Source: a virus. From it: a stretch of 64,000 nt of DNA. Made by a program: the position numbers and the translations under genes. The stretch is from positions 1 through 64,000 of IMG/VR virus record IMGVR_UViG_3300028025_003013, one strand, 5' to 3'. This document shows, in pieces, positions 19,595 to 33,026 of the stretch; the first letter of the stretch is position 1, and every line of letters begins with the position of its first letter. The notes below the pieces were generated by a model. The model was given only the letters and a program-made list of their open reading frames with translations, made no database searches and was not told the origin of the DNA.

Positions 19595-20084
19595 TTGGTG
19601 CTATAACAGCGTAGTTATTTCTCATGATGATGAGACACTTATTGATGCCTTGGAACAGGAATTGATGAAGGGTGATGATGCCAAGGTGTTTAATCATCTT
19701 GTGCCTCGTCCAGTCGAAGAGGAAGAAAACTGGTACGCATGGAACATCAACGCATGGGGTACAAAGTGGGATGTGACTCCGTATGATTGGGATCGTGATG
19801 GTAATTCTATCACTATGACTTTTGATTCTGCATGGTCGCCACCGATTAATCTGTATGAAACACTGACTGAAGAAGGTTGGTATGTTAATGCAAAGTATCA
19901 TGAGCCTGGATGTGTATTCATTGGAAAGTTTGAAGATGGCTTTGATGAATATTATGAGTACGACATTACAGACGAAGATGCAATCAATGAGTTGCCAGAA
20001 GAACTGATTGAGTTCGGTAACCTGTTGGAAGAGCATGAGAACTGGAAAGAAAATAATGAAGCTACAGACGAAACTGAAGATTGA
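19587..20084 (+). CDS. DUF1281/YubB ferredoxin-like protein
   Basis: MPNWCYN, WYAWNINAWGTKWD, FDSAWSPP. Confidence 0.8.
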   Translation: MPNWCYNSVVISHDDETLIDALEQELMKGDDAKVFNHLVPRPVEEEENWYAWNINAWGTKWDVTPYDWDRDGNSITMTFDSAWSPPINLYETLTEEGWYVNAKYHEPGCVFIGKFEDGFDEYYEYDITDEDAINELPEELIEFGNLLEEHENWKENNEATDETED

Positions 20085-20189
20085 GAATTTCTTTAATCAG
20101 ATTCAGCGTAACTTTACGTTGATGGAATGGTTCGTTATAATGCTGGTTGTTTACATGTTGGGTAATGTATTGTTTAACTGGATCTTTAG

Positions 20190-20669
20190 ATGAAACAAAA
20201 GTGGCTTGATGCGTTCATGGACACAGCCGAGCGATTTGCTCAGTTGTCGAGTTCGCGAAGATTGCATGTTGGTGCAGTTGTCGTAAAGGATAATCGCATC
20301 ATCTCGATCGGCTACAATGGTATGCCAGCTGGTTGGACTAATGACTGCGAGCATAAGATCTATTGTGATGATGGAGATTATTCTGAACAGCTTCTTCCTA
20401 AGGATTCGAATCAGTGGGTAAAGTATAAACTTGTCACAAAGGATGAAGTTATCCATGCTGAGGCGAATGCCATAGCCAAGTTAGCCAGAGATGGCGAAAG
20501 CGGAAGTGGCAGTGCTATGTTTTGTACTCATGCGCCATGTGTGCAGTGTGCCAAACTAATCTATGGGGCTGGTATCACCAAGATGTTCTATAGAGACAGC
20601 TATCGGGATGCTGATGGGATAAACTTCCTTACAGCTACAGGTGTTGAGGTAATACCCTACAAAAAGTAA
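20190..20669 (+). CDS. cd: dCMP deaminase
   Basis: SIGYNG, HAEANAI, PCVQC. Confidence 0.92.
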   Translation: MKQKWLDAFMDTAERFAQLSSSRRLHVGAVVVKDNRIISIGYNGMPAGWTNDCEHKIYCDDGDYSEQLLPKDSNQWVKYKLVTKDEVIHAEANAIAKLARDGESGSGSAMFCTHAPCVQCAKLIYGAGITKMFYRDSYRDADGINFLTATGVEVIPYKK

Positions 20670-20743
20670 GGTTTTAATAAAATACTTGACGGAAATTCAA
20701 AACTGAGGTAGAATTGGTTATAAATACTTAAATGGAGTTCAAA

Positions 20744-21052
20744 ATGAAAAAGATCGTAAAATTTGCAGTTGCTTCTCTTGTGGTTTCTTTTGGCTTTGCA
20801 TCGACAGCGCATGCATGGGGCGAAAGAGAACAAGGTGCTCTTGCTGGTGTAGCTGGTCTTTGGATATTTCAACAATTGTCCAAGCCACAAGTTGTAGTTC
20901 AGCAACCACCAGTTGTGTATGCTCCTCCGCAAGTTGTGTATACTCAACCACCAGTTGTAGTATATAACCCTGTGAGACAATGGTGTGAGACCAGAGTTAT
21001 TATCGACCAAAATGGTTTTCATCGCACTGCTCAGGTTTGTTGGTATCAGTAA
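20744..21052 (+). CDS. secreted Pro/Val-rich small protein
   Basis: Signal peptide (AHA), PPVVY repeats; both early (TTGACG) and late (TATAAATA 20719-20726) promoter motifs upstream. Confidence 0.7.
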   Translation: MKKIVKFAVASLVVSFGFASTAHAWGEREQGALAGVAGLWIFQQLSKPQVVVQQPPVVYAPPQVVYTQPPVVVYNPVRQWCETRVIIDQNGFHRTAQVCWYQ

Positions 21053-21062
21053 GTTGTAAGTG

Positions 21063-21091
21063 TTGACTTTAAAAGAAAAGAAACGTATAAT
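21063..21091 (+). promoter_or_regulatory. sigma70-type promoter of tRNA array leader
   Basis: TTGACT-17 nt-TATAAT. Confidence 0.85.
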
Positions 21092-21097
21092 TCAATT

Positions 21098-21220
21098 ATG
21101 TTAAAAATAGTTTGTTCCTCGTTGGCTAAACATCTACCACTCAATAGTGGCTGGACAAACACACGCCCACAGTCAACAGACGTATTTGCGATTGAGTATA
21201 GTGAGGGTTTTGGAAACTAG
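21098..21220 (+). CDS. putative attenuator leader peptide (40 aa, all 20 amino acids)
   Basis: MLKIVCSSLAKHLPLNSGWTNTRPQSTDVFAIEYSEGFGN*; ATG 6 nt after -10; 3' end overlaps antiterminator arm. Confidence 0.7.
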   Translation: MLKIVCSSLAKHLPLNSGWTNTRPQSTDVFAIEYSEGFGN

Positions 21221-21283
21221 ATTAGACAACAAGTCTACTTCCCAAAACCCTCTGAGATGAAAGTCCAGAGGGTTTTTTGTTTT
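21203..21283 (+). terminator. mutually exclusive antiterminator / intrinsic terminator (attenuator)
   Basis: GAGGGTTTTGG 21203-13 pairs with CCAAAACCCTC 21242-52; alternatively AAAACCCTCTG 21244-54 pairs with CAGAGGGTTTT 21266-76, running into a U-tract. Confidence 0.8.
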
Positions 21284-21328
21284 AGGGCATCGTCCCAAAT
21301 TAGATCTTTAACAATTTGAAGTTTCTGT

Positions 21329-21402
21329 TCCCTGATAGTGTAGCGGTAACACAGCTGACTTTGACTCAGCTATCGCAGGTTCGAATCCTGCTCGGGGTGC
21401 CA
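21329..21402 (+). tRNA. tRNA-Gln(TTG)
   Basis: Cloverleaf, GCTGA-CT-TTG-AC-TCAGC, CCA. Confidence 0.9.
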
Positions 21403-21440
21403 TAATAAAGCATATTGCAAAGTATGCTTTGATATGATAT

Positions 21441-21514
21441 GGGGGTAAAACTTTAAAGTGAAGTAACTGGCTTTTAACCAGTAAAACTAGGAGCGTTACC
21501 TAGTACCCCTACCA
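21441..21514 (+). tRNA. tRNA-Lys(TTT), atypical D/T loops
   Basis: ACTGG-CT-TTT-AA-CCAGT; T-loop AGCGTTA; CCA. Confidence 0.82.
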
Positions 21515-21522
21515 GATACAAT

Positions 21523-21598
21523 GGTGTCCATAGTGTAAAGGTTAGCACCCAACTCTGTGAAAGTTGTAGAAAGGGATCGTTCCCCTTTGGATACCCCA
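21523..21598 (+). tRNA. tRNA-His(GTG)
   Basis: G-1/C73, CAACT-CT-GTG-AA-AGTTG; T-loop ATCGTTC. Confidence 0.85.
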
Positions 21599-21600
21599 GT

Positions 21601-21675
21601 GGTGATATAGCACAGCGGTAGTGCACTTCCTTCATACGGAATAGGTCGTTTGTTCGAATCAAACTATCACCACCA
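21601..21675 (+). tRNA. tRNA-Met/Ile2(CAT)
   Basis: Cloverleaf, CAT anticodon, CCA. Confidence 0.85.
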
Positions 21676-21686
21676 AAGATTAATAT

Positions 21687-21773
21687 GGGTGTTGCCCACT
21701 ACGGCAGTCTGTAAAACTGTTCCTGAAGGTAGTGAAGTCAAGGCACGTGGAGCGTTACCATCAACACCCACCA
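21687..21773 (+). tRNA. tRNA-Tyr(GTA)-like, D-armless, 8/4 fold
   Basis: 8-bp acceptor GGGTGTTG/CAACACCC, GCAGT-CT-GTA-AA-ACTGT, long variable region, ACCA. Confidence 0.7.
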
Positions 21774-21779
21774 TATTAT

Positions 21780-21856
21780 GCCCCGATGACGGAATTGGTA
21801 TACGTGTTGGTCTTAGAAACCAAATTTTGGGAGTTCGAGTCTCCCTTGGGGCACCA
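21780..21856 (+). tRNA. tRNA-Leu(TAG), short variable arm
   Basis: TTGGT-CT-TAG-AA-ACCAA, CCA. Confidence 0.88.
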
Positions 21857-21864
21857 AGTATTTT

Positions 21865-21939
21865 GCATCGTTAACTCAGCGGTAGAGTGTCTCCCTTACA
21901 AGGAGAAGGTCGGCAGTTCGATCCTGTCACGATGTACCA
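21865..21939 (+). tRNA. tRNA-Val(TAC)
   Basis: Canonical cloverleaf, CCA. Confidence 0.92.
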
Positions 21940-21946
21940 GTTTTAT

Positions 21947-22022
21947 GCCAAGATAGCTCATCAGGTAGAGCACCAGTTTGAAGCATTGGGTGTGGTCGGT
22001 TCGAGTCCGACTCTTGGTACCA
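21947..22022 (+). tRNA. tRNA-Phe(GAA)
   Basis: CCAGT-TT-GAA-GC-ATTGG, CCA. Confidence 0.88.
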
Positions 22023-22026
22023 GTTT

Positions 22027-22101
22027 TGCCTTATAGCTCAGAGGAAGAGCAATCGCTTGATAAGCGATAGGTCGACATTTCGAAATTGTCTAAGGCAACC
22101 A
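22027..22101 (+). tRNA. tRNA-Ile(GAT)
   Basis: ATCGC-TT-GAT-AA-GCGAT, CCA. Confidence 0.85.
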
Positions 22102-22102
22102 T

Positions 22103-22179
22103 ATCCCAATGGCGCAATTGGTAGACGCACCTCTCTCAAAAGGAGTCTGTTGAAGGTTCGAGTCCTTCTTGGGATACCA
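22103..22179 (+). tRNA. tRNA-Leu(CAA), short variable arm
   Basis: CT-CAA-AA loop, ATCCCAA/TTGGGAT acceptor, CCA. Confidence 0.83.
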
Positions 22180-22185
22180 GATTAT

Positions 22186-22261
22186 GCCCCATTAGTAAAA
22201 TGGATGATTACGCTGTGCTACGAACGCAGAGGTGGAGGTTCAATTCCTTCATGGGGTACCA
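22186..22261 (+). tRNA. tRNA-Arg(ACG)
   Basis: CTGTG-CT-ACG-AA-CGCAG, CCA. Confidence 0.88.
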
Positions 22262-22269
22262 AAGTTTAT

Positions 22270-22361
22270 GGAAGATAATGCAGCGGGGTTGGTCCTGCGA
22301 CCAGCCTTGAAAACTGGGTTCTCAGAAATGGGATGGGGTTCGACTCCTCTGTCTTCCGCCA
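22270..22361 (+). tRNA. tRNA-Ser(TGA), 8/4 fold with enlarged D arm
   Basis: GGAAGATA/TGTCTTCC acceptor, TGA anticodon, G73, CCA. Confidence 0.82.
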
Positions 22362-22377
22362 ATATAAGGAGCATGAT

Positions 22378-22572
22378 ATGCAAATAACGAGAGCAGAACA
22401 GGCAAACATTAAACAGCATAACTTGGAGCAACGTCGTCTTCAAGACAAGAGAGATGAAGACTATCGCAAGGTAGTTGAGAAAAGATCGTATGAACGAATC
22501 ATAGAAGATCGAGTTGATCGCAATCGTCGCCTGGATTTAGACAAAGGTAGGAATATAGATATTGAATGTTAG
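22378..22572 (+). CDS. small charged protein within tRNA array
   Basis: AAGGAG RBS; ends KGRNIDIEC. Confidence 0.65.
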   Translation: MQITRAEQANIKQHNLEQRRLQDKRDEDYRKVVEKRSYERIIEDRVDRNRRLDLDKGRNIDIEC

Positions 22573-22656
22573 AGAGTGGGCAGGATGGTAATGCAGCAGT
22601 TTGCTAAACTGTAGATCCGAAAGGGTCAAAGGGTTCGACTCCCTTACTCTCTGCCA
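22571..22656 (+). tRNA. tRNA-Ser(GCT)
   Basis: GCAGT-TT-GCT-AA-ACTGT, long V arm, CCA. Confidence 0.9.
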
Positions 22657-22658
22657 AT

Positions 22659-22733
22659 ACGGCATTCGTTCAACGGATAGGACATGAGTCTTCTAAACTC
22701 AGAATGGTGGTTCGATTCCTCCATGCCGTGCCA
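22659..22733 (+). tRNA. tRNA-Arg(TCT)
   Basis: TGAGT-CT-TCT-AA-ACTCA, CCA. Confidence 0.9.
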
Positions 22734-22739
22734 GTGTTC

Positions 22740-22814
22740 GGGCTGATAGCTTAATGGTAAAGCGTTCGACTCATAATCGATTGAGTCTGAGTTCAATTCT
22801 CAGTCAGCCCACCA
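22740..22814 (+). tRNA. tRNA-Ile2/Met(CAT)
   Basis: Cloverleaf, CT-CAT-AA loop, CCA. Confidence 0.88.
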
Positions 22815-22856
22815 GTGTAATGTTAAATAGAGGTAATGCAGTAAGAAAGGTCTAAT

Positions 22857-23414
22857 ATGAATATCCTAGCACTTGATGCAAGTGGTCTACCTAGAAAGTG
22901 GATCAACTTTGAAGATGCAATTACGTACCATGCCAAAGGGCAGGTTGTATGGTCTCTTGGAGATCCTGTTGCAAAGTTTCGTGGTGGTTTGCAAAATGAT
23001 GGCACATTGTCTTACATCGAGTCGCCATCTATCATTGCGATCAAAGGTAAAGGATATTCACTTGACAAAGTCGGGAGAGTAATCCTGACAAACAAAACTT
23101 TGTTTGGTCGTGACAGACATCTGTGTGCTTATTGTGGTGATGTATTTTTACCAAGCAAGTTATCACGTGACCATGTTGTGCCTGTATCAAAGGGTGGTGA
23201 AGATAGTTGGACAAACGTAGTAACATCATGCGTCAAGTGCAATACGCACAAGGGTGCTAAGACACTTGAACAAAGTGGCTTGCAGTTGCTGTATGTTCCA
23301 TACGAACCAAACCACTACGAGAATATGATTTTACAAAACAGAAACATTCTTGCTGATCAAATGGAGTACTTGTTATCAGGTGTTCCAAAGAACAGTAGAG
23401 TGCATCTGCTATAG
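22857..23414 (+). CDS. HNH endonuclease
   Basis: RDRHLCAYCG, DHVVPVSKGG, WTNVVTSCVKCN. Confidence 0.9.
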   Translation: MNILALDASGLPRKWINFEDAITYHAKGQVVWSLGDPVAKFRGGLQNDGTLSYIESPSIIAIKGKGYSLDKVGRVILTNKTLFGRDRHLCAYCGDVFLPSKLSRDHVVPVSKGGEDSWTNVVTSCVKCNTHKGAKTLEQSGLQLLYVPYEPNHYENMILQNRNILADQMEYLLSGVPKNSRVHLL

Positions 23415-23490
23415 TGCGATACCCGAGCGGTCTAAGGGCACAGCCTGCAAAACTGATGATTCGTGGGTTCGAATCCCACTCGCACTTCCA
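23413..23490 (+). tRNA. tRNA-Cys(GCA)
   Basis: CT-GCA-AA loop, U73, CCA. Confidence 0.88.
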
Positions 23491-23549
23491 AGATAGTTGT
23501 TGACCTTAATTCAGGTTTAGTGTATAATTGATTTTTAGATGGAGAAAAA

Positions 23550-23687
23550 ATGTTTAAAGATGATGTGGCACTGGGCGAATTTTTGGAATTTTTGGGTGAC
23601 CTGTCCCTCGAGGGGGAGTCTTTTGAAATATGTCTGGCTGCACTGAAACTGCAGTCCGCACTGAAAGAAATTTATCCGCAGTATTGA
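23550..23687 (+). CDS. small hypothetical protein
   Basis: Own promoter (TTGACC...TATAAT) and GGAG RBS; MFKDDVALGEFLEFL. Confidence 0.55.
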   Translation: MFKDDVALGEFLEFLGDLSLEGESFEICLAALKLQSALKEIYPQY

Positions 23688-23731
23688 AAATACTGCTTGA
23701 CTTAAATTAGCATTTGATGTATAATTAGAGT

Positions 23732-23817
23732 TCTGAAGTCCTCTATTAGTCTTTACGTAAAGTCGGAAGCATGAGGCTTGGGGTGTGGCTCATCGTGAGA
23801 TGCCCAGTCACCCCACC
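23732..23817 (+). ncRNA. candidate structured small RNA behind TTGACT-17-TATAAT promoter
   Basis: No ORF; stems AAGTCCTC/GAGGCTT and GGGGTG/CACCCC, CATC-GTGA-GATG hairpin. Confidence 0.45.
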
Positions 23818-23820
23818 TTT

Positions 23821-23895
23821 GCACGATTCGTCTATCGGTTAGGACACCAGCCTTTCACGTTGGTAAGATGGGTTCGATTCCCATATCGTGTACCA
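23821..23895 (+). tRNA. tRNA-Glu(TTC)
   Basis: CCAGC-CT-TTC-AC-GTTGG, CCA. Confidence 0.9.
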
Positions 23896-24116
23896 TATTA
23901 AATTGTATTGGGTTGCCAATGCCAGTAGGTAATTTAGTTCGCCCCCAACTGACGGAGTTGGACTGCTAAGTTACACGAAACCTTGAGATCATATCAGGAG
24001 GACGCTGGACAAAATTGGAACGTAATGTGGTTAACAGACAAGTCCATGGACGTCATGGTAGGGCAGGTTCAAAACTGTTATTTCTGTTAAACATCCCAGT
24101 ATAATTTAATATGGTA
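23891..24116 (+). ncRNA. unassigned multibranch structured RNA closed by a 22-bp stem
   Basis: 23891-23912 pairs with 24095-24116 (two G-U pairs); nested hairpins. Confidence 0.65.
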
Positions 24117-24124
24117 AAGTTTAT

Positions 24125-24200
24125 TCCCTAGTAGCACAGCGGTAGTTGCACTTGACTGTTAATCAAGGTGTCCGTGGTTCGATCCCACGCTGGGGAGCCA
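24125..24200 (+). tRNA. tRNA-Asn(GTT)
   Basis: CTTGA-CT-GTT-AA-TCAAG, CCA. Confidence 0.92.
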
Positions 24201-24204
24201 ATAT

Positions 24205-24281
24205 CGCGATGTATGGAAGTGGTCATCCGCCCAGTCTCATAAGCTGTGGAATCGCTGGTTCGAATCCAGCCATCGCAACCA
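24205..24281 (+). tRNA. initiator tRNA-fMet(CAT)
   Basis: C1:A72 mismatch, CAT anticodon, CCA. Confidence 0.85.
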
Positions 24282-24283
24282 AA

Positions 24284-24508
24284 CGTGCCGAGTGTCTTTG
24301 GCTAATGTGATCCGCATGACGAGAAACAGTGTGACAACTGTAGGATGGTTCTTCTTCTGTAATGGAAGTCATGGGTAACCATGGGTCGACCTAACCAGCG
24401 TTGGCAACACGAAAGTCTTGTGCATGGCGAGTGGGTGGAAGGTACGTGTGATGGGTGCGATAGCGTCGTATCTTGATGTGCTATAATTACCACGATGTGC
24501 AGGAAGCA
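24284..24508 (+). ncRNA. candidate structured RNA between tRNA-fMet and tRNA-Thr
   Basis: GC-rich, no credible ORF; hairpins ACAGT/ACTGT, CATGG-GTAA-CCATG, TGGTT/AACCA. Confidence 0.5.
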
Positions 24509-24510
24509 AT

Positions 24511-24584
24511 GCCCTTGTAGTATATTGGTATTACAGTTGCCTTGTAAGCATCAAAAGAAGGTTCGATTCCTTACTGGGGCACCA
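24511..24584 (+). tRNA. tRNA-Thr(TGT)
   Basis: CT-TGT-AA loop, CCA. Confidence 0.83.
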
Positions 24585-24592
24585 AGTTTTTA

Positions 24593-24667
24593 GGTCTCAA
24601 AGTGTTCATGGACGCACATATGCCTGTCACGCATAAAGAAGGGGATCGTTACCCCTTGAGACCGCCA
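24593..24667 (+). tRNA. tRNA-Asp(GTC)
   Basis: TATGC-CT-GTC-AC-GCATA; T-loop ATCGTTA; CCA. Confidence 0.85.
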
Positions 24668-24812
24668 TTGTTAAGTGTTATCAAGGTATCGTGTATGGAC
24701 CCATACACTACTCGACAGTAAGGGTGCGACTGACACTGTCTGATATAACTGTTATTCGCTCGCCAGTGCTAGCTACATTTTTGGCAAATCGGCAGATAAC
24801 ACTTAACAATGG
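24665..24812 (+). ncRNA. unassigned structured RNA closed by a perfect 18-bp stem
   Basis: CCATTGTTAAGTGTTATC 24665-82 pairs with GATAACACTTAACAATGG 24795-812; three inner hairpins. Confidence 0.65.
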
Positions 24813-24816
24813 TTTT

Positions 24817-24891
24817 GGGGGATTAGTGATAATGGGAGCACATGTGCTTTGCAAGCATGAAGTGGGAGTTCGATCCTCCCATCCTCCACCA
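24817..24891 (+). tRNA. tRNA-Ala(TGC)
   Basis: G3:U70, TGC anticodon, CCA. Confidence 0.9.
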
Positions 24892-24899
24892 AAATATAT

Positions 24900-24976
<77 letters not shown>

Positions 24977-24990
24977 ACATCGAAGGTAAT

Positions 24991-25443
24991 ATGTTACATC
25001 TTATTGAAACTCTAACCGATAAGTTTTTTGAATTGCTTGCAGATGATCCTGTGAGACCAACCATACCACATGTGGACAGAGTTGGTGAGAACAAGGACAT
25101 CTTTGTATTTCGTGATGAGAACGATACAGTGAAAGCTATTACCTGCGTCAGCTATCAGGCAACCATACCTACCAAGGAATCAGAGTTGTTTGAGCAATGC
25201 GACAATCCTACAATTGCGATCTTTTACACCATCTGGAGTTATGCTCCTGGTGCTGGCAGAAAACTAATCTTTGATGCAGTGCGACATATCAAAGAAAACG
25301 ATACATGCATAGAACGATTCATTACACTTTCTCCAAAGACTGAGATGGCTAGAAAATTCCATCTAGGAAACAAAGCCATCATCCTAAGAGAAAATGAAGA
25401 GACTGTCAACTACGAATATATACAGGAGAAAACCAATGGCTAA
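24991..25443 (+). CDS. hypothetical protein, possible GNAT-like fold
   Basis: AIFYTIWSYAPGAGRKLI...TLSPKTEMARKFH. Confidence 0.7.
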   Translation: MLHLIETLTDKFFELLADDPVRPTIPHVDRVGENKDIFVFRDENDTVKAITCVSYQATIPTKESELFEQCDNPTIAIFYTIWSYAPGAGRKLIFDAVRHIKENDTCIERFITLSPKTEMARKFHLGNKAIILRENEETVNYEYIQEKTNG

Positions 25444-25562
25444 TGTTAAGCAGGGTAATCTTACAAAGAGTCCTCAGTGGTGGAAACACCTCAAGGACTT
25501 TAAGCGTTTCTTCTGGAAAGCAGAACGCAAAGCACAAAACAATGACATCAAAGGGAGACTGC

Positions 25563-25754
25563 ATGAGTGATACACCATCTACATTTAAGCAACAGTGGGA
25601 AGCCAAGAAGTTACTTAAACGTGCAAAGAAGAAAGCCAAGCACCAGCTACAAAAAGAAGGTTTCTCTAAGAACGAAGCCACCAAGCAGGTTAACTCAGCA
25701 TTGAATCGTATTGTGGCTAATCCGATTCGCAAAGCAAGTGGTCGAGGTGGATAA
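25563..25754 (+). CDS. small basic protein
   Basis: GGGAG RBS, MSDTPSTFKQQW. Confidence 0.55.
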   Translation: MSDTPSTFKQQWEAKKLLKRAKKKAKHQLQKEGFSKNEATKQVNSALNRIVANPIRKASGRGG

Positions 25755-26053
25755 TGAGTTATAGTCGCTGGGGTGGTTCTGTATGGTATAGTTTTTACAA
25801 CTGCAGTTCAGGTGACACCAGAGACACTCAGGTGCTATCTCTGTGGTACAGCATGGATCATATCATCGACTGGTTGTATGCAGATCTAGAAGATGTTACA
25901 GCTGAAGATATTGTAGAAATGTATAAATGTACGCATGCAGAAGCTACAGAAGCCATGGAGATCATAGGCTGGTTCATGGATGATGTAATGGAAGATTATC
26001 CTGATGCACTGCAAATTCTTGATAAAATAGACAAAATCGGTGAGCCCAGATGA
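25754..26053 (+). CDS. hypothetical protein
   Basis: MSYSRW start, coupled ORF. Confidence 0.6.
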   Translation: MSYSRWGGSVWYSFYNCSSGDTRDTQVLSLWYSMDHIIDWLYADLEDVTAEDIVEMYKCTHAEATEAMEIIGWFMDDVMEDYPDALQILDKIDKIGEPR

Positions 26054-26120
26054 TGGAATTGGTATACATATCAGACTTAAAATCTGAGTTCTGAGGGTTC
26101 GAGTCCCTCTCTGGGCACCA
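26044..26120 (+). tRNA. tRNA-Leu(TAA), short variable arm
   Basis: TCAGA-CT-TAA-AA-TCTGA, CCA. Confidence 0.9.
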
Positions 26121-26140
26121 AACCCTCCCCATACAGGTAG

Positions 26141-26235
26141 AAAAATCCCTTTAAAATCAACAACTTACGTAATCCCCTCAGTTTCTGGGGGTTTTGCAGA
26201 AACTTGTTGACGGAAATTGGGTTCTCATGCATAAT
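26141..26235 (+). repeat. early regulatory cassette copy
   Basis: AAAATCCCTTTAAAATCAACAACTTACG identical to the copy at ~8937-8963; hairpin; TTGACG 26207-12 ... CATAAT. Confidence 0.8.
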
Positions 26236-26270
26236 TATGTTATTGAGTTAGAAAACTGTTTGGAGATTAA

Positions 26271-27215
26271 ATGATGAATGCCGTGAAAACTACTGTGAAT
26301 TTCGATCGTGTTACTGGTAAAAACATTGTGATGGTCGGTGATGCTGGTCCTTTTAAGACTGCAAAAACTGGCGTTGAATTAGAACGTGCTGTTGAATTCT
26401 TTTTTAAGAAAGCCACTGGCGTGAAAAAAGATTACGATCAAATTATGGGTGGTGTGTCTGTGTCCTCTGAGCCAAAAGAAGAAAAGTATGACATCAATAC
26501 ACGATTCGGTTTCGTCGAGAAACTCGTGTCGATGGTTGCGTCTGGTGTCCAGCCCTCTGCTGTGATTACTGGTTCTGGTGGTCTCGGTAAGACATACACT
26601 GTTACAAAAACATTGCAGTCTTCTGGCTACAAAGATATCTCTGACTTGGCTGAGTTCCAAGTCGGTTCTGTGATTAACACTCGCAAGTGCTTTACCTTTG
26701 TTAAAGGTTATTCTACTCCAAAGGGTTTGTATCGCACTCTGTTCGAAAACAACAAGTCCATCATCGTGTTTGATGATTGCGATGCAGTGTTGAAAGATCC
26801 AGTTGCTTTGAACCTGTTGAAAGGTGCTTTGGATTCTTACGGCAAACGTATCATCAGCTGGAATGCTGACATGCGTGACGATGACCTGCCACGTAGCTTC
26901 AACTTCGAAGGTCGTGTGATTTTCATTAGCAACATGAGCCAAGACAAAATTGATCAGGCTATCCGTAGTCGTTCAATGATGATTGATCTGAGCATGACTC
27001 TTGACCAGAAGATTGATCGTATGGAGCACATTGCTTTGTCTGATGAGTTTATGCCTGAGTACACAAAGACTCAGAAGCAAGATGCTCTGGGTTTGATCCG
27101 TGACATCAAAGATGAAGCCAAGGAAATTTCCCTGCGCACTTTGATCTCGGTTACCAAGATCCGTGCCAGCAACGATGACTGGAAAGATCTTGCTACTTAC
27201 ATGTTGACTGCTTAA
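26271..27215 (+). CDS. AAA+/P-loop ATPase
   Basis: GSGGLGKT Walker A, VFDDCD Walker B, AIRSRS arginine finger. Confidence 0.88.
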   Translation: MMNAVKTTVNFDRVTGKNIVMVGDAGPFKTAKTGVELERAVEFFFKKATGVKKDYDQIMGGVSVSSEPKEEKYDINTRFGFVEKLVSMVASGVQPSAVITGSGGLGKTYTVTKTLQSSGYKDISDLAEFQVGSVINTRKCFTFVKGYSTPKGLYRTLFENNKSIIVFDDCDAVLKDPVALNLLKGALDSYGKRIISWNADMRDDDLPRSFNFEGRVIFISNMSQDKIDQAIRSRSMMIDLSMTLDQKIDRMEHIALSDEFMPEYTKTQKQDALGLIRDIKDEAKEISLRTLISVTKIRASNDDWKDLATYMLTA

Positions 27216-27225
27216 GGAGAAAGGT

Positions 27226-27459
27226 ATGAGTATAATGGCTGAGATGGTTATGGAAATACAATCTGATATCGCTGATGGTATCCTGTCCTTTGGTGCAATT
27301 GCTGAACGATATAACATTAATCGTGCGGATGTGGAATTGATTGCCGATGAGATGATGGAACAGCAATACGATGAGTCAATGGATGGTGACTTTGATTCTG
27401 CCATGGCCAGTGCTGGTTATGGAACTGACGAAGATTATGGTTATTATGGAGATGAATGA
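27226..27459 (+). CDS. small acidic protein
   Basis: DGDFDSAMASAGYGTDEDYG. Confidence 0.65.
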   Translation: MSIMAEMVMEIQSDIADGILSFGAIAERYNINRADVELIADEMMEQQYDESMDGDFDSAMASAGYGTDEDYGYYGDE

Positions 27460-27700
27460 TATGTACGTATCTTATACTGAAGCCCGAGTGGCTACCCTAC
27501 AATATAATCAAGAGCATGGTTCGTTCTTTGATCGTGGATCCGCTGACTCATACTATGGTCGTGAACCGATTCCCCATCGTGGTGGTGTAGGTGGTGCTTC
27601 TGGTCCAAGAATTGAATCCAACCATCCTGAAGATGTTCAGGCTTACATGGCTGGTTATGAGTTCAACGAAATGTATGGCGACAAGAAAGACTGGGGTTAA
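27452..27700 (+). CDS. hypothetical protein
   Basis: HGSFFDRGSADSYYGR...AYMAGY. Confidence 0.7.
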   Translation: MNDMYVSYTEARVATLQYNQEHGSFFDRGSADSYYGREPIPHRGGVGGASGPRIESNHPEDVQAYMAGYEFNEMYGDKKDWG

Positions 27701-27701
27701 A

Positions 27702-27902
27702 ATGATATTAGAAATGGCCAATGGCTCTAAAAGAAAGTTTGATGTCAACAACAAGAAAGATGTTGAGTTGTATAGAACTTTTTTAATGACTCGTCGTTGG
27801 GGTGGCACTGGTTGTCCTTTTGTTTTAGAATTCCCGCATCTGACGATCCCAGATATGATCAAAGATAAGATGATGCATAAGTATATGAAGATAGAAATTT
27901 AA
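27702..27902 (+). CDS. hypothetical protein
   Basis: WGGTGCPFVLEFPHLTIP. Confidence 0.6.
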   Translation: MILEMANGSKRKFDVNNKKDVELYRTFLMTRRWGGTGCPFVLEFPHLTIPDMIKDKMMHKYMKIEI

Positions 27903-27976
27903 GTCTCGCTGGTGTAATGGCAGCACGATGGTCTCCAAAACCATTAGTCGGAGTTCGAGTCTCTGGCGGGATGCCA
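27903..27976 (+). tRNA. tRNA-Trp(CCA)
   Basis: ATGGT-CT-CCA-AA-ACCAT, CCA. Confidence 0.9.
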
Positions 27977-27982
27977 AATAAT

Positions 27983-28057
27983 GCAGGTATAATTCAGTGG
28001 TAGAATGTCTCGTTGCCAACGAGAATGTCGTCGGTTCGAACCCGACTACCTGCTCCA
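27983..28057 (+). tRNA. tRNA-Gly(GCC)
   Basis: Canonical, U73, CCA. Confidence 0.92.
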
Positions 28058-28064
28058 CGTTTTC

Positions 28065-28138
28065 GCAGGGTTCGTATAGTGGTAATACCTTAGCCTTCCA
28101 AGCTAATGCTGAGAGTTCGATTCTCTTACCCTGCTCCA
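28065..28138 (+). tRNA. tRNA-Gly(TCC)
   Basis: Canonical, U73, CCA. Confidence 0.92.
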
Positions 28139-28142
28139 ATTT

Positions 28143-28218
28143 GCTGATATGGCTCAGTCGGTAGAGCACATCCTTGGTAAGGATGAGGTCACCAGTTCGA
28201 TTCTGGTTATCAGCACCA
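28143..28218 (+). tRNA. tRNA-Thr(GGT)
   Basis: Canonical, CCA. Confidence 0.93.
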
Positions 28219-28269
28219 TAGTTTGGAAACAGACTTGACGGAAACTTCAAATTGGAGTATAATTATATT

Positions 28270-28557
28270 ATGAATGATCTCTTTAAACCTACCTTTGACT
28301 GGATTCGTGATGACTTTGTTAGTAATCGCACTCGTTTTCTTGTGGAGTTGCTTGCTTGGGCTATCAGCATTGGCTGTAGTATCACGATGGCACTCACTGT
28401 CCCCACTCCCCCTCTTCTTGCTTTGTACCCTGTTTGGATCGCTGGTTGCGCCATGTATGCTTGGGCTGCTTATACTCGGCAATCGTTTGGGATGTTGGCT
28501 AACTACATCCTGCTTACCCTTATCGACACAGTGGGTTTGATAAGGATGCTAACATGA
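28270..28557 (+). CDS. small 3-TM membrane protein, leaderless
   Basis: ATG 6 nt after TATAAT 28258-63. Confidence 0.7.
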   Translation: MNDLFKPTFDWIRDDFVSNRTRFLVELLAWAISIGCSITMALTVPTPPLLALYPVWIAGCAMYAWAAYTRQSFGMLANYILLTLIDTVGLIRMLT

Positions 28558-28726
28558 AGTGGTTACGCTATTCAGGTATAACTTTGGGGATGACTCTCAA
28601 TCCCTTTCACTGGACGTTTGTTGCTCGTTGGATTAAGCCAACTGATATGGATCCCTGTCAATATGGGTTCTATGTTTCGCTGGGATTTATTTGGTTGCGT
28701 ATATGGATTGATAATGGAGACTGGTA

Positions 28727-28930
28727 ATGAAAATCGAAGATGCAGATTTTGTTTTGACAAGAAGCCAAATTTTAAAGCTGGCAGAATTGGCCAATCATTT
28801 TAAAGACACAAAGTTTTTTAATCTGTACGAAACCAATGACAATGGTATCGGACCATCAACGCATGTTCGGTTCGATCTGTTTGAAGAGGATGATACGAAA
28901 CTTAACATAACTGATGTGAGTACATGGTAA
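28727..28930 (+). CDS. hypothetical protein
   Basis: GGAG RBS; GIGP...ITDVSTW. Confidence 0.6.
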   Translation: MKIEDADFVLTRSQILKLAELANHFKDTKFFNLYETNDNGIGPSTHVRFDLFEEDDTKLNITDVSTW

Positions 28931-29142
28931 TGGACGACAACAAACTTGAGAAAATCGCTTATGAGATTGATGACTTTCTTGCAGAGTTGATTACGAAGTA
29001 TGAATTGGATGCGCTTGTTGCATCATCTATCATACTGGCTCGTTTGACTCGCATGAATGTTGAGGTAGATGGCGGAGAAGAATTTAAAAACCTAATGCGT
29101 AGCGCAATGGGTAAGACACTTGAACGAAATAATATACACTAG
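28930..29142 (+). CDS. hypothetical protein
   Basis: TAATG-coupled ORF. Confidence 0.6.
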   Translation: MDDNKLEKIAYEIDDFLAELITKYELDALVASSIILARLTRMNVEVDGGEEFKNLMRSAMGKTLERNNIH

Positions 29143-29150
29143 GAAAAACT

Positions 29151-30023
29151 ATGAAAATCGCAATTTGCTCGGATGTCCACCTTGAATTTGGACAATTGAA
29201 TTTGGAGAATACTGACAATGCTGAAGTTCTTGTTCTATCTGGTGATATCTGTACTGCTGTTGATCTTCGTGTTACCGATAGCATTCTTTCTTCTGCCAAA
29301 ACTGATCGCTATCTTGATTTCTTTACTGCTTGTAGTCGTAACTTTCCTCATGTGGTGTATGTCATGGGCAATCATGAGCATTATCATGGCGACTATGCTA
29401 CTTCTGCTGGTTTTCTAAAAGATGCCATGAAGCAATGTGGTGATAACATTCACTTCCTCGACAAAGAAGTTTGGGAACTGAACGACCATGTGTTTATCGG
29501 TGGCACTCTTTGGACTGACATGAATGGCGAAGATGAGATGACGATGAATCATGTGTCTCGTCGTATGAACGATTTTCAGATCTGTGAGAACAGTGCGGAG
29601 ATGGTTAACTACAGAACATTTGATACTGAAGATGACCACAAGAAAGTACGATTCAAAACTCGTCCAGCAACTTTGTCTCCAAGGCATGTAGTGGAAGACC
29701 ACAAAGCCATGCTAAAGGTAATTGAAGATACTTACGACAACACTCCTCCATGGAAGACTATTGTTGTTTGTACGCATCATGCACCAAGCAAAGGTTCTGA
29801 GCATCCACGTTACAAGACGGATCAATTGATGAATGGTGCTTACAATTCTCAGTTGGATGGCTTTATCATGGATCGTCCAGGTATCAAACTGTGGACTCAT
29901 GGTCACACTCATGAAGACTTTGACTACATGATTAAAGGTTGCCGTGTTGTTTGCAACCCTCGTGGTTACATTAACTACGAAGATCGTGCAGATCGTTTCG
30001 AACTTAAATTTGTTGAGGTATAA
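29151..30023 (+). CDS. calcineurin-like metallophosphoesterase
   Basis: SDVHLE, LSGDI, MGNHE, THHAP, HGHTH. Confidence 0.92.
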   Translation: MKIAICSDVHLEFGQLNLENTDNAEVLVLSGDICTAVDLRVTDSILSSAKTDRYLDFFTACSRNFPHVVYVMGNHEHYHGDYATSAGFLKDAMKQCGDNIHFLDKEVWELNDHVFIGGTLWTDMNGEDEMTMNHVSRRMNDFQICENSAEMVNYRTFDTEDDHKKVRFKTRPATLSPRHVVEDHKAMLKVIEDTYDNTPPWKTIVVCTHHAPSKGSEHPRYKTDQLMNGAYNSQLDGFIMDRPGIKLWTHGHTHEDFDYMIKGCRVVCNPRGYINYEDRADRFELKFVEV

Positions 30024-30113
30024 TATGGGACTGTTGAAGTCTATTCGTGAATGGTTTGTCAATGCGTTTAAAACTAGATGCACTGGCGACTGCAACCAAG
30101 GAAGGAACTGCAC

Positions 30114-30449
30114 ATGTCGGATTACAGACCAGATAAGTGGGTAGTTGTTAAAATTACTAGCAAAGAATATCCAGCAATTCATAAGGTGTTTGCCTGTTGG
30201 TATGGTGGATGGGCTGGTTCTGATTCATGGAAGCTGAACAGTGGTATTACCAAAGCTACTCTCGAAGGCAATGTATATTCCTTTGAGGGTAGTTCTGGTT
30301 CTGTTTATGAATGTCACAAAGACTGCTACGGAACGAATGGGTATGGTAGTGGTGTTCTCAATAATATGATTGACAGAGTTGAGAAGATTGGTGGAACAGT
30401 AGAAGTCCTACCAGAAGAAACGAATTGGTTGGAGATAAATTATGAGTAA
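30114..30449 (+). CDS. hypothetical phage protein
   Basis: YRPDKWVVV...GSDSWKLNSGI. Confidence 0.75.
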   Translation: MSDYRPDKWVVVKITSKEYPAIHKVFACWYGGWAGSDSWKLNSGITKATLEGNVYSFEGSSGSVYECHKDCYGTNGYGSGVLNNMIDRVEKIGGTVEVLPEETNWLEINYE

Positions 30450-31062
30450 ACCCTGCAATGAACATCCTGATGCACCCCATGGGTTCATGCGAGACGCATC
30501 TCATGACGCAGGGGAATACGTTTGTGAATGTCATTTTTGGAACCCAGAGGAAGACTATCATAGCGACAAAGGTTATGAAGTTGGAACATTGGAAGATTGT
30601 GAAGCATTTGACCGAAAACGAAATATGAAGTATACTATAACTGTAGAGGAAGATCCTGTAACTGGTGAACTTGTTTTACCTTTTACGGATGAAATCATAG
30701 AGCAAGTGGGCTGGAAGATCGGTGATACGATCGACTGGAAAGATAATCATAATGGGAGTTTTACCTTGAGCAAAGTTGATAAAGTTTGGGTAATGGTTGA
30801 TACGATCTTTACCTATCGCATGCGTTACTGCGTGCAAGCACCTGCCAGCAATCCAGAGTATGCTTTGGATGACGTAACGATGGAAACTGCAAAAGAGTTT
30901 TCGCAGTTGCCTATTGGGGAACACATTGTTTCTCATCGAGTTGTTTCTGAAGCAGAAGCAATCGCCATGTGTGATGTTGACAATGACTACTGCAAAGAAT
31001 GGACTTCTGAAAAGAAGGTTGAAGTGTTTTTTACTAAAGAAGGTGAAAAGGTACAACTATGA
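30442..31062 (+). CDS. composite hypothetical protein with AbrB-like segment
   Basis: VEEDPVTGELVLPF...GWKIGDTIDW. Confidence 0.65.
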   Translation: MSKPCNEHPDAPHGFMRDASHDAGEYVCECHFWNPEEDYHSDKGYEVGTLEDCEAFDRKRNMKYTITVEEDPVTGELVLPFTDEIIEQVGWKIGDTIDWKDNHNGSFTLSKVDKVWVMVDTIFTYRMRYCVQAPASNPEYALDDVTMETAKEFSQLPIGEHIVSHRVVSEAEAIAMCDVDNDYCKEWTSEKKVEVFFTKEGEKVQL

Positions 31063-31361
31063 AATATACGCTGACATGTGAACAAGGTTCTTTTAAGAAC
31101 ACAGTGCAGTTTGAAGAAGACTTCCTGCCGTCTGTTCTAGAGAATATGCAACTGTTTTTAAAGGGTTGTGGCTTTCACTTTGATGGTACGTTGGATATCA
31201 TTAACGAAGAAACTGAAGAACTGTATAGCGACACCCATGACTTTCGTGGTATGGACTGGGAACAAACTGTTAAGGTTACTAACCTTAACCAGACAGATAT
31301 GTTTGACTCCATGGATCTTCAGCATGCACCCAATTACTACGATACAGAGAGAAACAAATAA
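31059..31361 (+). CDS. hypothetical protein
   Basis: FLKGCGFHF motif. Confidence 0.65.
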   Translation: MKYTLTCEQGSFKNTVQFEEDFLPSVLENMQLFLKGCGFHFDGTLDIINEETEELYSDTHDFRGMDWEQTVKVTNLNQTDMFDSMDLQHAPNYYDTERNK

Positions 31362-32744: not shown

Positions 32745-32773
32745 ATACTATTATCCCATTACTGGAACATTGA

Positions 32774-33016
32774 ATGCCTACATATAGTTTTAGAAATAAA
32801 AACACTGGTGAGATACATGATGAAGTTATGCGCATCGCTGCTAGAGAGCAGTATCTACTAGATAATCCCCAACTCGAATCAATCATAACAAGTGCACCTG
32901 CATTTGCTGGGGATCATATCACAATCAAAACCGACTCAGGATTTAAGGAGGTGCTACAGAAGATACATGAACGAACCCCAGGAAGTCAGCTAAACAAATC
33001 TTCATCTCAACTCTAA
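32774..33016 (+). CDS. FmdB-like small protein
   Basis: MPTYSF...DSGFKEVLQKI. Confidence 0.7.
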   Translation: MPTYSFRNKNTGEIHDEVMRIAAREQYLLDNPQLESIITSAPAFAGDHITIKTDSGFKEVLQKIHERTPGSQLNKSSSQL

Positions 33017-33026
33017 GGAAGTCTAA

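What the first reader, a model, noticed from the sequence alone, without database searches (positions are those of the whole stretch)
21063..21402. Pan-tRNA-sensing attenuator: a 20-amino-acid leader peptide gates the phage tRNA array
Seen: a TTGACT-17-TATAAT promoter, then an ATG at about +1 (21098, leaderless) opening a 40-codon ORF absent from the ORF track. The ORF contains all 20 amino acids by codon 34 and 32 distinct codons. Synonymous codons read by different tRNAs are sampled: Leu TTA/TTG/CTA/CTC, Ser TCC/TCG/TCA/AGT, Ile ATA/ATT, Val GTT/GTA, Ala GCT/GCG, Gly GGC/GGT/GGA. Its last codons (GAGGGTTTTGG, 21203-13) pair perfectly with 21242-52, which is also the 5' arm of an intrinsic terminator (21244-54/21266-76 plus U-tract). 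The first tRNA begins about 45 nt later. Established: trp/his-type attenuators use this geometry but sense one or a few amino acids through codon runs. Inference: a ribosome reaching the stop codon masks the antiterminator, so transcription terminates. Stalling at almost any codon (starvation, or tRNA cleavage by host anticodon nucleases such as PrrC or PARIS AriB) frees it and turns on the phage's replacement tRNAs. I know of no description of such a general tRNA-integrity sensor in phages.
Basis: partly seen in the sequence, partly recalled or inferred. Interest (0 to 1): 0.92.

Follow-up and report, generated by a model that had tools for sequence, protein, structure and literature searches.

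The report
All-amino-acid leader switch gating phage tRNAs
A tiny gene that spells almost every amino acid ends inside a stop/go RNA switch at the head of this phage's tRNA gene array, so the phage probably makes more of its own tRNAs whenever ribosomes decode too slowly.

Summary
A sigma-70-type promoter (21063-21091) is followed six bases later by a 40-codon ORF (21098-21220) with all 20 amino acids. Its last codons form the 5' arm of a hairpin (21203-21252, -23.2 kcal/mol). That hairpin excludes an intrinsic terminator (21244-21283, -18.9 kcal/mol) 45 nt before tRNA-Gln.

Sixty-two distinct relatives keep the ORF in frame, with 32-46 codons and 19-20 amino-acid types. Single Cys, His and Tyr residues move between positions but are retained. 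All three helices covary.

An RNA-only pattern scan of viral contigs gave 90 distinct ORFs. Of these, 78 have at least 19 types and 83 lie within 400 nt of a downstream tRNA. They fall into 23 peptide families, 12 of high diversity. At 103 sites of the same pattern in cellular genomes, none had a tRNA nearby.

In other phages, low-diversity leaders match the amino acids of small tRNA blocks. One example is a Ser/Asp-rich leader before one Asp and three Ser tRNAs.

Best reading: a trp-type, ribosome-mediated attenuator reporting tRNA supply.

Caveats: there is no transcript evidence, Glu and Tyr lie outside the footprint-defined sensing zone, and isoacceptor sampling is not above chance.

I found no published account. 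This scan has noted the same class on other DNA.

The parts
21063..21091 (+). Promoter P1: TTGACT, 17 nt, TATAAT. The -10 hexamer ends 6 nt before the ATG, so the mRNA is leaderless or nearly so.
   Evidence: In 48 of 62 distinct relatives the -10 ends 6-7 nt before the ATG, and in 7 it ends 10-11 nt before. Five have no adjacent promoter but an AAGG Shine-Dalgarno; 2 have neither.
21098..21220 (+). Leader ORF, 40 codons plus TAG, with all 20 amino acids. By footprint geometry, codons 2-31 are the likely sensing zone.
21133..21155 (+). Hairpin inside the ORF (codons 12-20, -8.1 kcal/mol). It may be an RNA polymerase pause hairpin that synchronises transcription and translation (inferred).
   Evidence: 86.7% of cells are paired in 62 sequences, and 4 of 9 pairs change on both sides.
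21203..21252 (+). Antiterminator hairpin. The 5' arm is the last 5 codons, the stop codon and a few bases beyond; the 3' arm overlaps the terminator's 5' arm. -23.2 kcal/mol.
   Evidence: 88.4% of cells are paired, and 5 of 18 pairs change on both sides; slid controls give 38-56%.
21244..21283 (+). Intrinsic terminator: an 11-bp main stem, then TTTTTTGTTTT. -18.9 kcal/mol.
   Evidence: 96.8% of cells are paired, and 4 of 14 pairs change on both sides; slid controls give 28-67%.
21285..21296 (+). Small hairpin GGG/CCC with a conserved CATCGT loop. Its position resembles that of boxB.
   Evidence: The stems differ among relatives (GGG/CCC, TAGC/GCTA, ACCCTAC/GTAGGGT) while the loop is kept. This was read by eye, not counted.
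21302..21314 (+). boxA-like element AGATCTTTAACAA, 15 nt before tRNA-Gln. It probably recruits rrn-type antitermination for the untranslated array (inferred).
   Evidence: The relatives' consensus is TGTTCTTTAAAAATT, 27-30 nt before the tRNA. The rrnB boxA string is held in PMC2176067.
21329..28218 (+). tRNA array: 25 genes by ARAGORN. Rfam adds a tRNA at 21441-21511 (43.4 bits; anticodon read by eye as UUU, Lys) and a sub-threshold tRNA-like stretch at 22270-22357 (34.9 bits; read by eye as Ser-UGA). With these two the array covers 19 amino acids; without them 18. No tRNA-Tyr was found in the 73.5-kb record.

Best explanation
This is a ribosome-mediated, trp-type transcription attenuator placed in front of tRNA genes.

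Proposed sequence of events:
1. Host RNA polymerase starts at P1, and a ribosome begins on the 5'-terminal AUG.
2. If decoding is fast, the ribosome reaches the last codons and the stop and covers 21203-21231. Segment 21242-21252 is then free to pair with 21266-21276, and transcription ends at the T-tract.
3. If the ribosome is absent or held up at any of codons 2-31, the stronger hairpin 21203-21252 forms first and takes the terminator's 5' arm. Polymerase then runs through the boxA-like element into the tRNA array.

The leader carries about one codon for nearly every amino acid, so a severe shortage of almost any usable tRNA raises transcription of the phage's near-complete tRNA set. This would be a negative-feedback gauge of tRNA supply.

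Shown here: the anatomy, the conservation, the covariation, the retained composition, and the match between leader and array in other phages. Inferred: translation, ribosome-polymerase coupling, the direction of the response, and what is sensed (tRNA amount versus charging).
For: 1. Translation. 62 distinct relatives keep one open frame of 32-46 codons from a conserved ATG. Conserved residues vary at third positions: for His, Leu, Pro and Gly columns, position-3 entropy is 1.2-1.35 against 0-0.2 at position 2. 48 of 62 have leaderless spacing, and 5 without an adjacent promoter carry AAGG 8-10 nt upstream.

2. Switch. The minimum-free-energy fold of the whole leader uses the antiterminator. 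Energies are -23.2 against -18.9 kcal/mol.

3. Composition within the family. 42 of 62 relatives have 20 types and 20 of 62 have 19, at a mean identity of 52% and a minimum of 11%.
- Cys sits at the commonest column in 33, only elsewhere in 26, and is absent in 3.
- His and Tyr are each present in 62 of 62, either at one column or elsewhere but never both, with at least 6 changes each on the tree.
- In the independent pairs on supported branches, about 10.5 of 11 go the opposite way and none the same way (the sign test run for 10 of 10 gives p = 0.002).

4. Composition beyond the family. A scan on RNA motifs alone gave 90 distinct rule-chosen ORFs. 78 have at least 19 types, and 83 have a tRNA within 400 nt downstream. 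They form 23 phmmer families, 12 with at least 19 types; P(at least 12 of 23) is 9e-9 even at p = 0.07.

5. Control. Of 103 sites of the same pattern in cellular genome contigs, 0 have a tRNA within 400 nt. Two have such an ORF, both on short MAG contigs. The own genome has one site.

6. Mirror.
- Low-diversity leaders precede small blocks of the same amino acids. The L211 Ser/Asp-rich leader precedes one Asp and three Ser tRNAs. L206 and L209 leaders (AVVAEALVLDAEW) precede Trp, Glu, Val, Ala, Asp, Leu and Met tRNAs. A leader containing QHPQHQPQ precedes a Pro/His/Gln block.
- Binomial enrichment is P = 6e-5 to 5e-3 in 6 of 8 cases.
- Arrays behind leaders with at least 19 types cover 14-20 amino acids (21 loci). 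Blocks behind low-diversity leaders cover 2-7.

7. Gate. In the window and 22 other distinct relatives (23 of 52), the 33-54 nt between terminator and tRNA hold no promoter.
Against: - There is no transcript, 5'-end or ribosome data. RNA contigs were uninformative.
- With a 13-nt 3' footprint, the window's sensing zone holds 18 types (Glu and Tyr outside). Across the family the zone holds 16-20 types (mode 17). Asp is outside in 55 of 58 and Glu in 44 of 58. Zone diversity in the main family alone is only P = 0.03-0.12 for typical members.
- 20 of 62 relatives lack one amino acid. Among the 38 first examined, 16 lack one: Val in 12, Asp in 2, Cys in 1, Gln in 1. Yet arrays of Val-less leaders carry tRNA-Val (L199, L200, L108).
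- The window's leader has a Tyr codon, but no tRNA-Tyr was found.
- Isoacceptor sampling is not above chance.
- One codon per amino acid should respond only to severe shortage (inference).
- 29 of 52 relatives have a second promoter after the terminator. The window's array has further promoter-like sites at 23500, 23697, 26207 and 28235. The gate may therefore control only part of the tRNA output.
- Some 20-type leaders precede arrays with fewer specificities within the DNA seen: L136 has 14, L190 has 15, L088 has 6.
- A conserved LP..GW..R core could reflect a function of the peptide itself, though part of it coincides with the in-ORF hairpin.
- The enrichment test failed for L208 (P = 0.43) and was weak for L210 (P = 0.018).
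Confidence: 0.7

Rival explanations
1. A self-contained small gene. P1, a 40-residue peptide (or a dual-function small RNA of about 190 nt) and its own terminator form one unit. The tRNAs are made from other promoters, and the 21203-21252 hairpin only stabilises or processes the short RNA.
For: - 29 of 52 distinct relatives have a consensus-like promoter right after the terminator.
- A conserved peptide core (L and P in 61 and 60 of 62, W in 61 of 62, R in 61 of 62) could mean the peptide has its own function.
- The peptide matches no PHROG family, so nothing excludes a new small protein.
Against: - In 23 of 52 relatives, including the window, there is no room for a promoter: 33-54 nt, filled by a hairpin and a boxA-like element.
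- The element sits at tRNA-array heads in 83 of 90 cases.
- Single Cys, His and Tyr residues change position while their presence is kept, which is odd for a folded or binding peptide.
- Unrelated peptide families share only the composition.
- Leaders of small blocks mirror the block's amino acids.
Confidence: 0.12
2. A sensor of translation in general. The switch reports whether ribosomes initiate and keep pace (for example host shut-off, ribosome-targeting defence or antibiotics). The rich composition is a by-product.
For: - The geometry responds to any loss of translation: with no ribosome the antiterminator forms.
- There is one codon per amino acid and no codon runs.
- Known ribosome-mediated attenuators sense stalled ribosomes. 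Only the search listing of PMC9226507 was seen.
- The Anabaena tRNA operon is induced by translation inhibitors (PMC8421152, abstract and passages).
Against: - A general sensor needs no particular composition. Yet 12 of 23 families keep at least 19 types.
- Residues relocate rather than vanish.
- Leaders of partial arrays are restricted to the arrays' amino acids.
Confidence: 0.13
3. A chance ORF beside an ordinary terminator.
For: Short ORFs are common. 5 of 215 in the window reach at least 19 types.
Against: - In-frame conservation in 62 distinct relatives.
- Covariation of the helices.
- The cellular control set.
Confidence: 0.02

Closest known systems
Leader-peptide transcription attenuators of amino-acid operons (trpL, hisL, leuL, pheL; the multivalent thr and ilvGMEDA leaders). 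Described from established knowledge; only the abstract of PMC3082878 on pheL was seen.
   Same: A short translated ORF, mutually exclusive antiterminator and terminator hairpins, and a stop codon placed so that a finishing ribosome masks the antiterminator's 5' arm. A hairpin early in the transcript could act as a pause signal. The regulatory codons match the product of the controlled genes.
   Different: - The controlled genes are tRNAs, not biosynthetic enzymes.
- There is no run of one codon; instead about one codon for nearly every amino acid.
- There are three pairing segments rather than four, so an untranslated RNA reads through.
- The start is leaderless.
- A boxA-like element follows the terminator.
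Attenuator of the pheST operon (pheM leader) and T-box leaders of aminoacyl-tRNA synthetase genes (recalled; T-box only from the listing of PMC9177973).
   Same: Attenuation that controls a component of the translation apparatus according to the state of a tRNA.
   Different: - pheM senses one amino acid.
- T-boxes bind uncharged tRNA directly and have no ORF. No Rfam T-box or other leader family matched here. The only hit in the leader is a sub-threshold 32-bit match to RF02744.
Ribosome-mediated attenuators that sense stalled ribosomes on short ORFs (for example vmlR of Bacillus subtilis; PMC9226507, listing and abstract start only).
   Same: A stall in an upstream ORF changes the terminator/antiterminator choice.
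   Different: Those respond to antibiotics through particular nascent peptides. Here the constraint is on amino-acid make-up, and the output is tRNA.
The trn operon of Anabaena sp. PCC 7120, a long tRNA array induced 100-1000-fold when translation is impaired (PMC8421152, abstract and passages). It is repressed by TrcR (PMC10272220, listing only).
   Same: An accessory, near-complete tRNA array switched on when translation is compromised.
   Different: It is cellular and plasmid-borne, and is reported as controlled by a repressor. The words attenuat-, leader and terminator occur 0 times in PMC8421152.
rrn-type boxA/boxB antitermination (recalled; the rrnB boxA string stands in PMC2176067).
   Same: A boxA-like string with an upstream hairpin stands before a long untranslated RNA operon.
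   Different: It lies downstream of an attenuator in a phage. Binding of NusB/NusE was not tested.

Membership tests
Leader-peptide (ribosome-mediated) transcription attenuator | A short ORF in the 5' leader that is translated | tested here: inconclusive
   Indirect support only. The ORF is conserved in frame in 62 of 62 distinct relatives with third-position variation. Start contexts are leaderless spacing or a Shine-Dalgarno. There are no ribosome or peptide data.
Leader-peptide (ribosome-mediated) transcription attenuator | An intrinsic terminator before the controlled genes and a mutually exclusive antiterminator | tested here: met
   The two hairpins share 21244-21252. Energies are -23.2 against -18.9 kcal/mol. 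Both covary.
Leader-peptide (ribosome-mediated) transcription attenuator | The ORF's end is placed so that a terminating ribosome masks the antiterminator's 5' arm while a ribosome stalled upstream leaves it free | tested here: met
   The stop at 21218-21220 lies inside the 5' arm (21203-21224). In the relatives the stop is mostly 13-22 nt after the GGGTT that begins two bases into the 5' arm. The masking itself is inferred from the usual footprint.
Leader-peptide (ribosome-mediated) transcription attenuator | Regulatory codons that correspond to what the controlled genes supply | tested here: met
   - Window: 38 of 39 codons after the start encode an amino acid with a tRNA in the array.
- Other phages: leaders of partial blocks are enriched for the blocks' amino acids in 6 of 8 tests at P < 0.005.
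- There are no tandem codon runs in the window.
Leader-peptide (ribosome-mediated) transcription attenuator | Read-through rises when the cognate charged tRNA is scarce | not testable with these tools
   This needs Term-seq, reporters or in-vitro coupled assays.
T-box riboswitch | Specifier loop and T-box antiterminator bulge that bind tRNA; no ORF needed | tested here: not met
   No T-box or other cis-regulatory family reached threshold in 20000-37000 at E up to 1.
rrn-type boxA antitermination site | A boxA string conserved upstream of an untranslated RNA operon | tested here: inconclusive
   AGATCTTTAACAA stands at 21302-21314. A like string stands 27-30 nt before the first tRNA in 33 of 52 intervals by a narrow regex, and by eye in nearly all. 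Factor binding was not tested.

The most novel reading that the evidence does not exclude
Phages carry a decoding-speed gauge for their tRNA genes. It is a test message written with the roster of amino acids whose tRNAs follow it, and in this lineage that roster is essentially all twenty.

A stall at almost any codon would open the gate to a replacement tRNA set. Causes could be host tRNA decay after shut-off, codon-usage mismatch, or cleavage of a tRNA by a host anticodon nuclease.

This would make the element both a homeostat and an alarm against tRNA-targeting defence. It would be one member of a widespread, undescribed class of tRNA-gene attenuators.
Probability: 0.5. Interest if true: 0.92.

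Novelty: new variant of a known kind. Interest (0 to 1): 0.85.

Why it matters
Why phages carry tRNA arrays, and how they are expressed, is an open question that has become more pressing with the discovery of tRNA-cleaving defences.

A leader whose make-up equals the roster of the tRNAs behind it would show three things:
- tRNA genes can be under trp-style attenuation;
- phages measure the host's decoding capacity codon by codon;
- tRNA output is demand-driven.

It also gives a simple sequence signature for finding such controls in metagenomes. The part is compact (about 220 nt), has a sigma-70-type promoter, and can be tested directly in laboratory strains.

Tried and rejected
- Peptide-alignment scan. 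The search for related loci with the peptide alignment failed because no stretch was conserved enough. I used a DNA pattern instead.
- GenBank phages. There is no relative of the leader region, only tRNA-Gln matches. tblastn of the peptide gave only an E = 0.6 match in a Bacillus phage structural gene. No cultured system was found.
- Families. No PHROG family matched the peptide or the upstream 106-residue protein. Rfam gave only a sub-threshold match (RF02744, 32 of 88 bits) over the hairpins.
- RNA evidence.
  - Four metatranscriptome runs are held only as contigs.
  - Contigs of X15 and X16 cover about 20686-21205 and 20784-21203 and end at the start of the antiterminator arm.
  - A divergent X18 contig spans 21244-21416.
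  - Contigs show neither starts, ends nor strand, no DNA run was laid beside them, and DNA can be present in RNA libraries. I draw nothing from this.
- Isoacceptor-level matching of leader codons to the array's anticodons is not above a synonymous shuffle in any of 9 cases (P = 0.06-1.0). Rejected as evidence.
- Strict mirror. Val-less leaders still have tRNA-Val behind them.
- First clustering at 40% identity with single linkage merged nearly everything. It was replaced by phmmer links.

Rows dropped or altered:
- Pattern sites with fewer than 150-160 nt upstream, and duplicate sequences, were skipped.
- 7 of 104 regions had no ATG ORF ending at the arm. Three of these families start with GTG and were therefore truncated or missed.
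- ORFs longer than 47 codons were cut to an internal Met. This mis-cut L189 and L133.
- Only the best 80 of at least 599 dCMP-deaminase loci, and 120 pattern hits per collection, were returned.
- Supplementary files of papers were not seen.

Full report
**What is there.** The window is the first 64 kb of a 73.5-kb IMG/VR virus record that CheckV rates 46% complete. At 21063-21091 stands TTGACT, 17 nt, TATAAT, which is 11 of 12 matches. The ATG at 21098 follows the -10 hexamer by six bases.

The ORF 21098-21220 encodes MLKIVCSSLAKHLPLNSGWTNTRPQSTDVFAIEYSEGFGN. It has 20 amino-acid types and 32 distinct codons. Its last five codons and stop lie in the 5' arm of a hairpin spanning 21203-21252. 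The 3' arm of that hairpin overlaps the 5' arm of a terminator (21244-21276, T-tract to 21283). tRNA-Gln starts at 21329.

**Energetics.**
- The full leader RNA folds with the 21203-21252 hairpin, not the terminator: -51.6 kcal/mol, z = -3.0.
- Alone, the antiterminator is -23.2, the terminator -18.9, and a hairpin inside the ORF (21133-21155) -8.1 kcal/mol.
- An untranslated transcript should therefore read through.
- A ribosome at the stop would cover about 21203-21231 and leave 21242-21252 free for the terminator. This step is inferred from the usual footprint.

**Relatives.**
- Loci around dCMP-deaminase homologues held the leader region in 41 of 84 loci by blastn at 70-82% identity.
- In the main family, 62 distinct sequences were aligned.

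What the 62 show:
- All keep the ATG and one open frame of 32-46 codons.
- Mean peptide identity is 52%, with a minimum of 11%.
- Conserved residues show synonymous third-position variation.
- 48 of 62 have the -10 hexamer 6-7 nt before the ATG and 7 have it 10-11 nt before. Five lack an adjacent promoter and instead have AAGG 8-10 nt upstream. Two have neither.

This is the pattern of a translated ORF.

**Structure.**

| Helix | Cells paired | Pairs changed on both sides | Slid controls |
|---|---|---|---|
| Terminator | 96.8% | 4 of 14 | 28-67% |
| Antiterminator | 88.4% | 5 of 18 | 38-56% |
| In-ORF hairpin | 86.7% | 4 of 9 | 38-56% |

The slid controls were computed for the antiterminator and the in-ORF hairpin together. 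The covariation scores exceeded all 500 shuffles, with the tool's own caveat that relatedness inflates this measure.

**Is the 20-of-20 make-up more than chance?**
- For one sequence, P = 0.002 for 20 types and 0.03 for at least 19. One of 215 small ORFs in the window has 20 types, and it is this one.
- In the family, 42 of 62 have 20 types and 20 of 62 have 19.
- The presence of rare residues is kept while their place changes.
  - Cys is at the commonest column in 33, only elsewhere in 26, and absent in 3.
  - His and Tyr are present in all 62, at one column or elsewhere but never both, with at least 6 changes each on the tree.
  - In the few independent pairs on supported branches the two traits go opposite ways (about 10.5 of 11) and never the same way (the sign test run for 10 of 10 gives p = 0.002).

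The pattern scan chose sites without regard to coding.
- Of 90 distinct rule-chosen ORFs, 78 have at least 19 types and 50 have 20.
- 83 have a tRNA within 400 nt downstream. Five loci end too early to tell, and 2 have none.
- They fall into 23 phmmer families, 12 of them with at least 19 types in 26-48 codons. P is 9e-9 even with p = 0.07 per family.
- As a control, the same pattern in cellular genome contigs gave 103 sites. None had a tRNA within 400 nt. Only 2 had such an ORF, both on short MAG contigs that may be phage fragments.

**The mirror.** Some pattern hits have leaders of low diversity (8-10 types in the first 16-24 codons). I fetched their surroundings.

| Locus | Leader | tRNAs behind it |
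|---|---|---|
| L211 | MTYKFLVNSDSSSSSDSDPRGGFPVR | Asp, Ser, Ser, Ser |
| L206, L209 | core AVVAEALVLDAEW | Trp, Glu, Val, Ala, Asp, Leu, Met |
| L205 | no Trp in the leader | no tRNA-Trp in the block |
| L098 | Leu/Ala/Val/Asp-rich leader (MKNLMDIMLISALVALLWADNDVDELCSVGFNKLRC) | only Asp, Val, Glu, Leu, Ala, Trp |
| L210 | 21-residue leader | Asp, Asn, Tyr, Glu, Pro, Ile, Trp; all seven occur in the leader |

- In the same 366-kb phage as L205, I looked upstream of a Pro/His/Gln block. There I found a short ORF containing QHPQHQPQ followed by the same kind of switch.
- Enrichment for the block's amino acids is P = 6e-5 to 5e-3 in 6 of 8 cases, 0.018 in one and 0.43 in one.
- Arrays behind leaders with at least 19 types cover 14-20 amino acids (21 loci with at least 4 kb seen). 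Blocks behind low-diversity leaders cover 2-7.

The window's leader is thus the full-roster end of a continuum.

**Limits.**
- With about 13 nt of mRNA protected 3' of the A site, only codons 2-31 can leave the antiterminator arm free. In the window these hold 18 types, with Glu and Tyr outside.
- In the main family the zone holds 16-20 types (mode 17). Asp lies outside in 55 of 58 and Glu in 44 of 58, so zone diversity there is only mildly unusual.
- Other families reach 18-20 types in 25-35 zone codons. Fisher's combined P over 12 families is 2e-10.
- Val is missing from many leaders although tRNA-Val is in their arrays.
- No tRNA-Tyr was found in the record.
- 29 of 52 relatives have a second promoter behind the terminator. 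The window and 22 others do not.
- The window's array has later promoter-like sites, so the gate may govern mainly the first block (21329-22814).
- No expression evidence could be obtained.

**After the terminator.** A small hairpin with a conserved CATCGT loop (21285-21296) and a boxA-like string (21302-21314) are conserved in the relatives. This fits a transcript meant to continue through a long untranslated array. The rrnB boxA string was checked in PMC2176067.

**Known and new.** Five full-text searches found no account of leader-peptide attenuation of tRNA genes. Their term sets were:
- leader peptide, attenuation, tRNA operon, all 20 amino acids;
- phage, tRNA genes, leader peptide, transcription attenuation;
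- tRNA array, attenuator, phage;
- phage-encoded tRNAs, leader peptide;
- viral tRNA, attenuation, stalling, antiterminator, tRNA cluster.

The nearest in print that I saw is the Anabaena trn operon, induced by translational stress (PMC8421152, abstract and passages). In that paper the words attenuat-, leader and terminator do not occur.

This scan's own notes hold the same class on other DNA. These include an 'all-amino-acid leader switch' on a relative of this window. The notes are unchecked AI notes, and I formed the reading before seeing them. They add no independent evidence.

**Verdict.** The feature is real and conserved. It is best read as a trp-type attenuator of a phage tRNA array with a full-roster leader. 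That makes it a new variant of a known mechanism. Function is untested.

Noticed in passing
window 21441-21511 and 22270-22357: Rfam finds a tRNA at 21441-21511 that ARAGORN misses (43.4 bits; anticodon loop reads UUU, Lys). It also finds a sub-threshold long-arm tRNA-like stretch at 22270-22357 (34.9 bits, below the family threshold of 47; loop reads UGA, Ser). No tRNA-Tyr is found anywhere in the 73.5-kb record.
   Followed up: partly
window 35534-35932: The phage carries a tmRNA gene of the permuted (two-piece), beta-proteobacterial type. Matches are RF04321 at 131.7 bits and RF01850 at 125.8 bits, and the tag peptide is ANDEQFALAA.
   Followed up: no
window 23500-23830: A second consensus promoter (23500-23528) and a Shine-Dalgarno precede a 45-codon ORF (23550-23687) rich in Glu, Leu, Asp, Phe and Ala. 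The ORF has an internal terminator-like hairpin at 23604-23626. A third promoter follows (23697-23725) just before tRNA-Glu. This may be another leader-type control inside the array.
   Followed up: no
window 21162-21169: CACGCCCA lies just 3' of the in-ORF hairpin. It is conserved at the nucleotide level, including third codon positions (entropy about 0 in three successive codons). It may be a polymerase pause site or another RNA contact.
   Followed up: no
L205 (G003:C1:88000-107000), about 420 nt before the Lys/Tyr tRNA block: A 45-codon ORF ending in YYDKMKKMKRKQ precedes a block of three Lys and three Tyr tRNAs. It is followed by a hairpin without a clear T-tract, so it may be a leader with a different kind of switch.
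   Followed up: partly
L171, L174, L100, L111, L141, L168 (pattern hits without a leader ORF): A different conserved, apparently non-coding element of about 150 nt ends in the same kind of terminator. It begins GTCCTGTCAATCCGATTGGATAG and is not next to tRNA genes.
   Followed up: no
L184, L104, L208 (tRNA arrays of relatives): ARAGORN calls a tRNA with anticodon CTA (amber-reading, labelled Pyl) inside several of these phage arrays.
   Followed up: no
window 20686-21205: RNA-library contigs of two coded runs (X15, X16) both end at 21203-21205, the first bases of the antiterminator arm. The cause is unknown: it could be an assembly break, strain variation or a structure-related stop.
   Followed up: no
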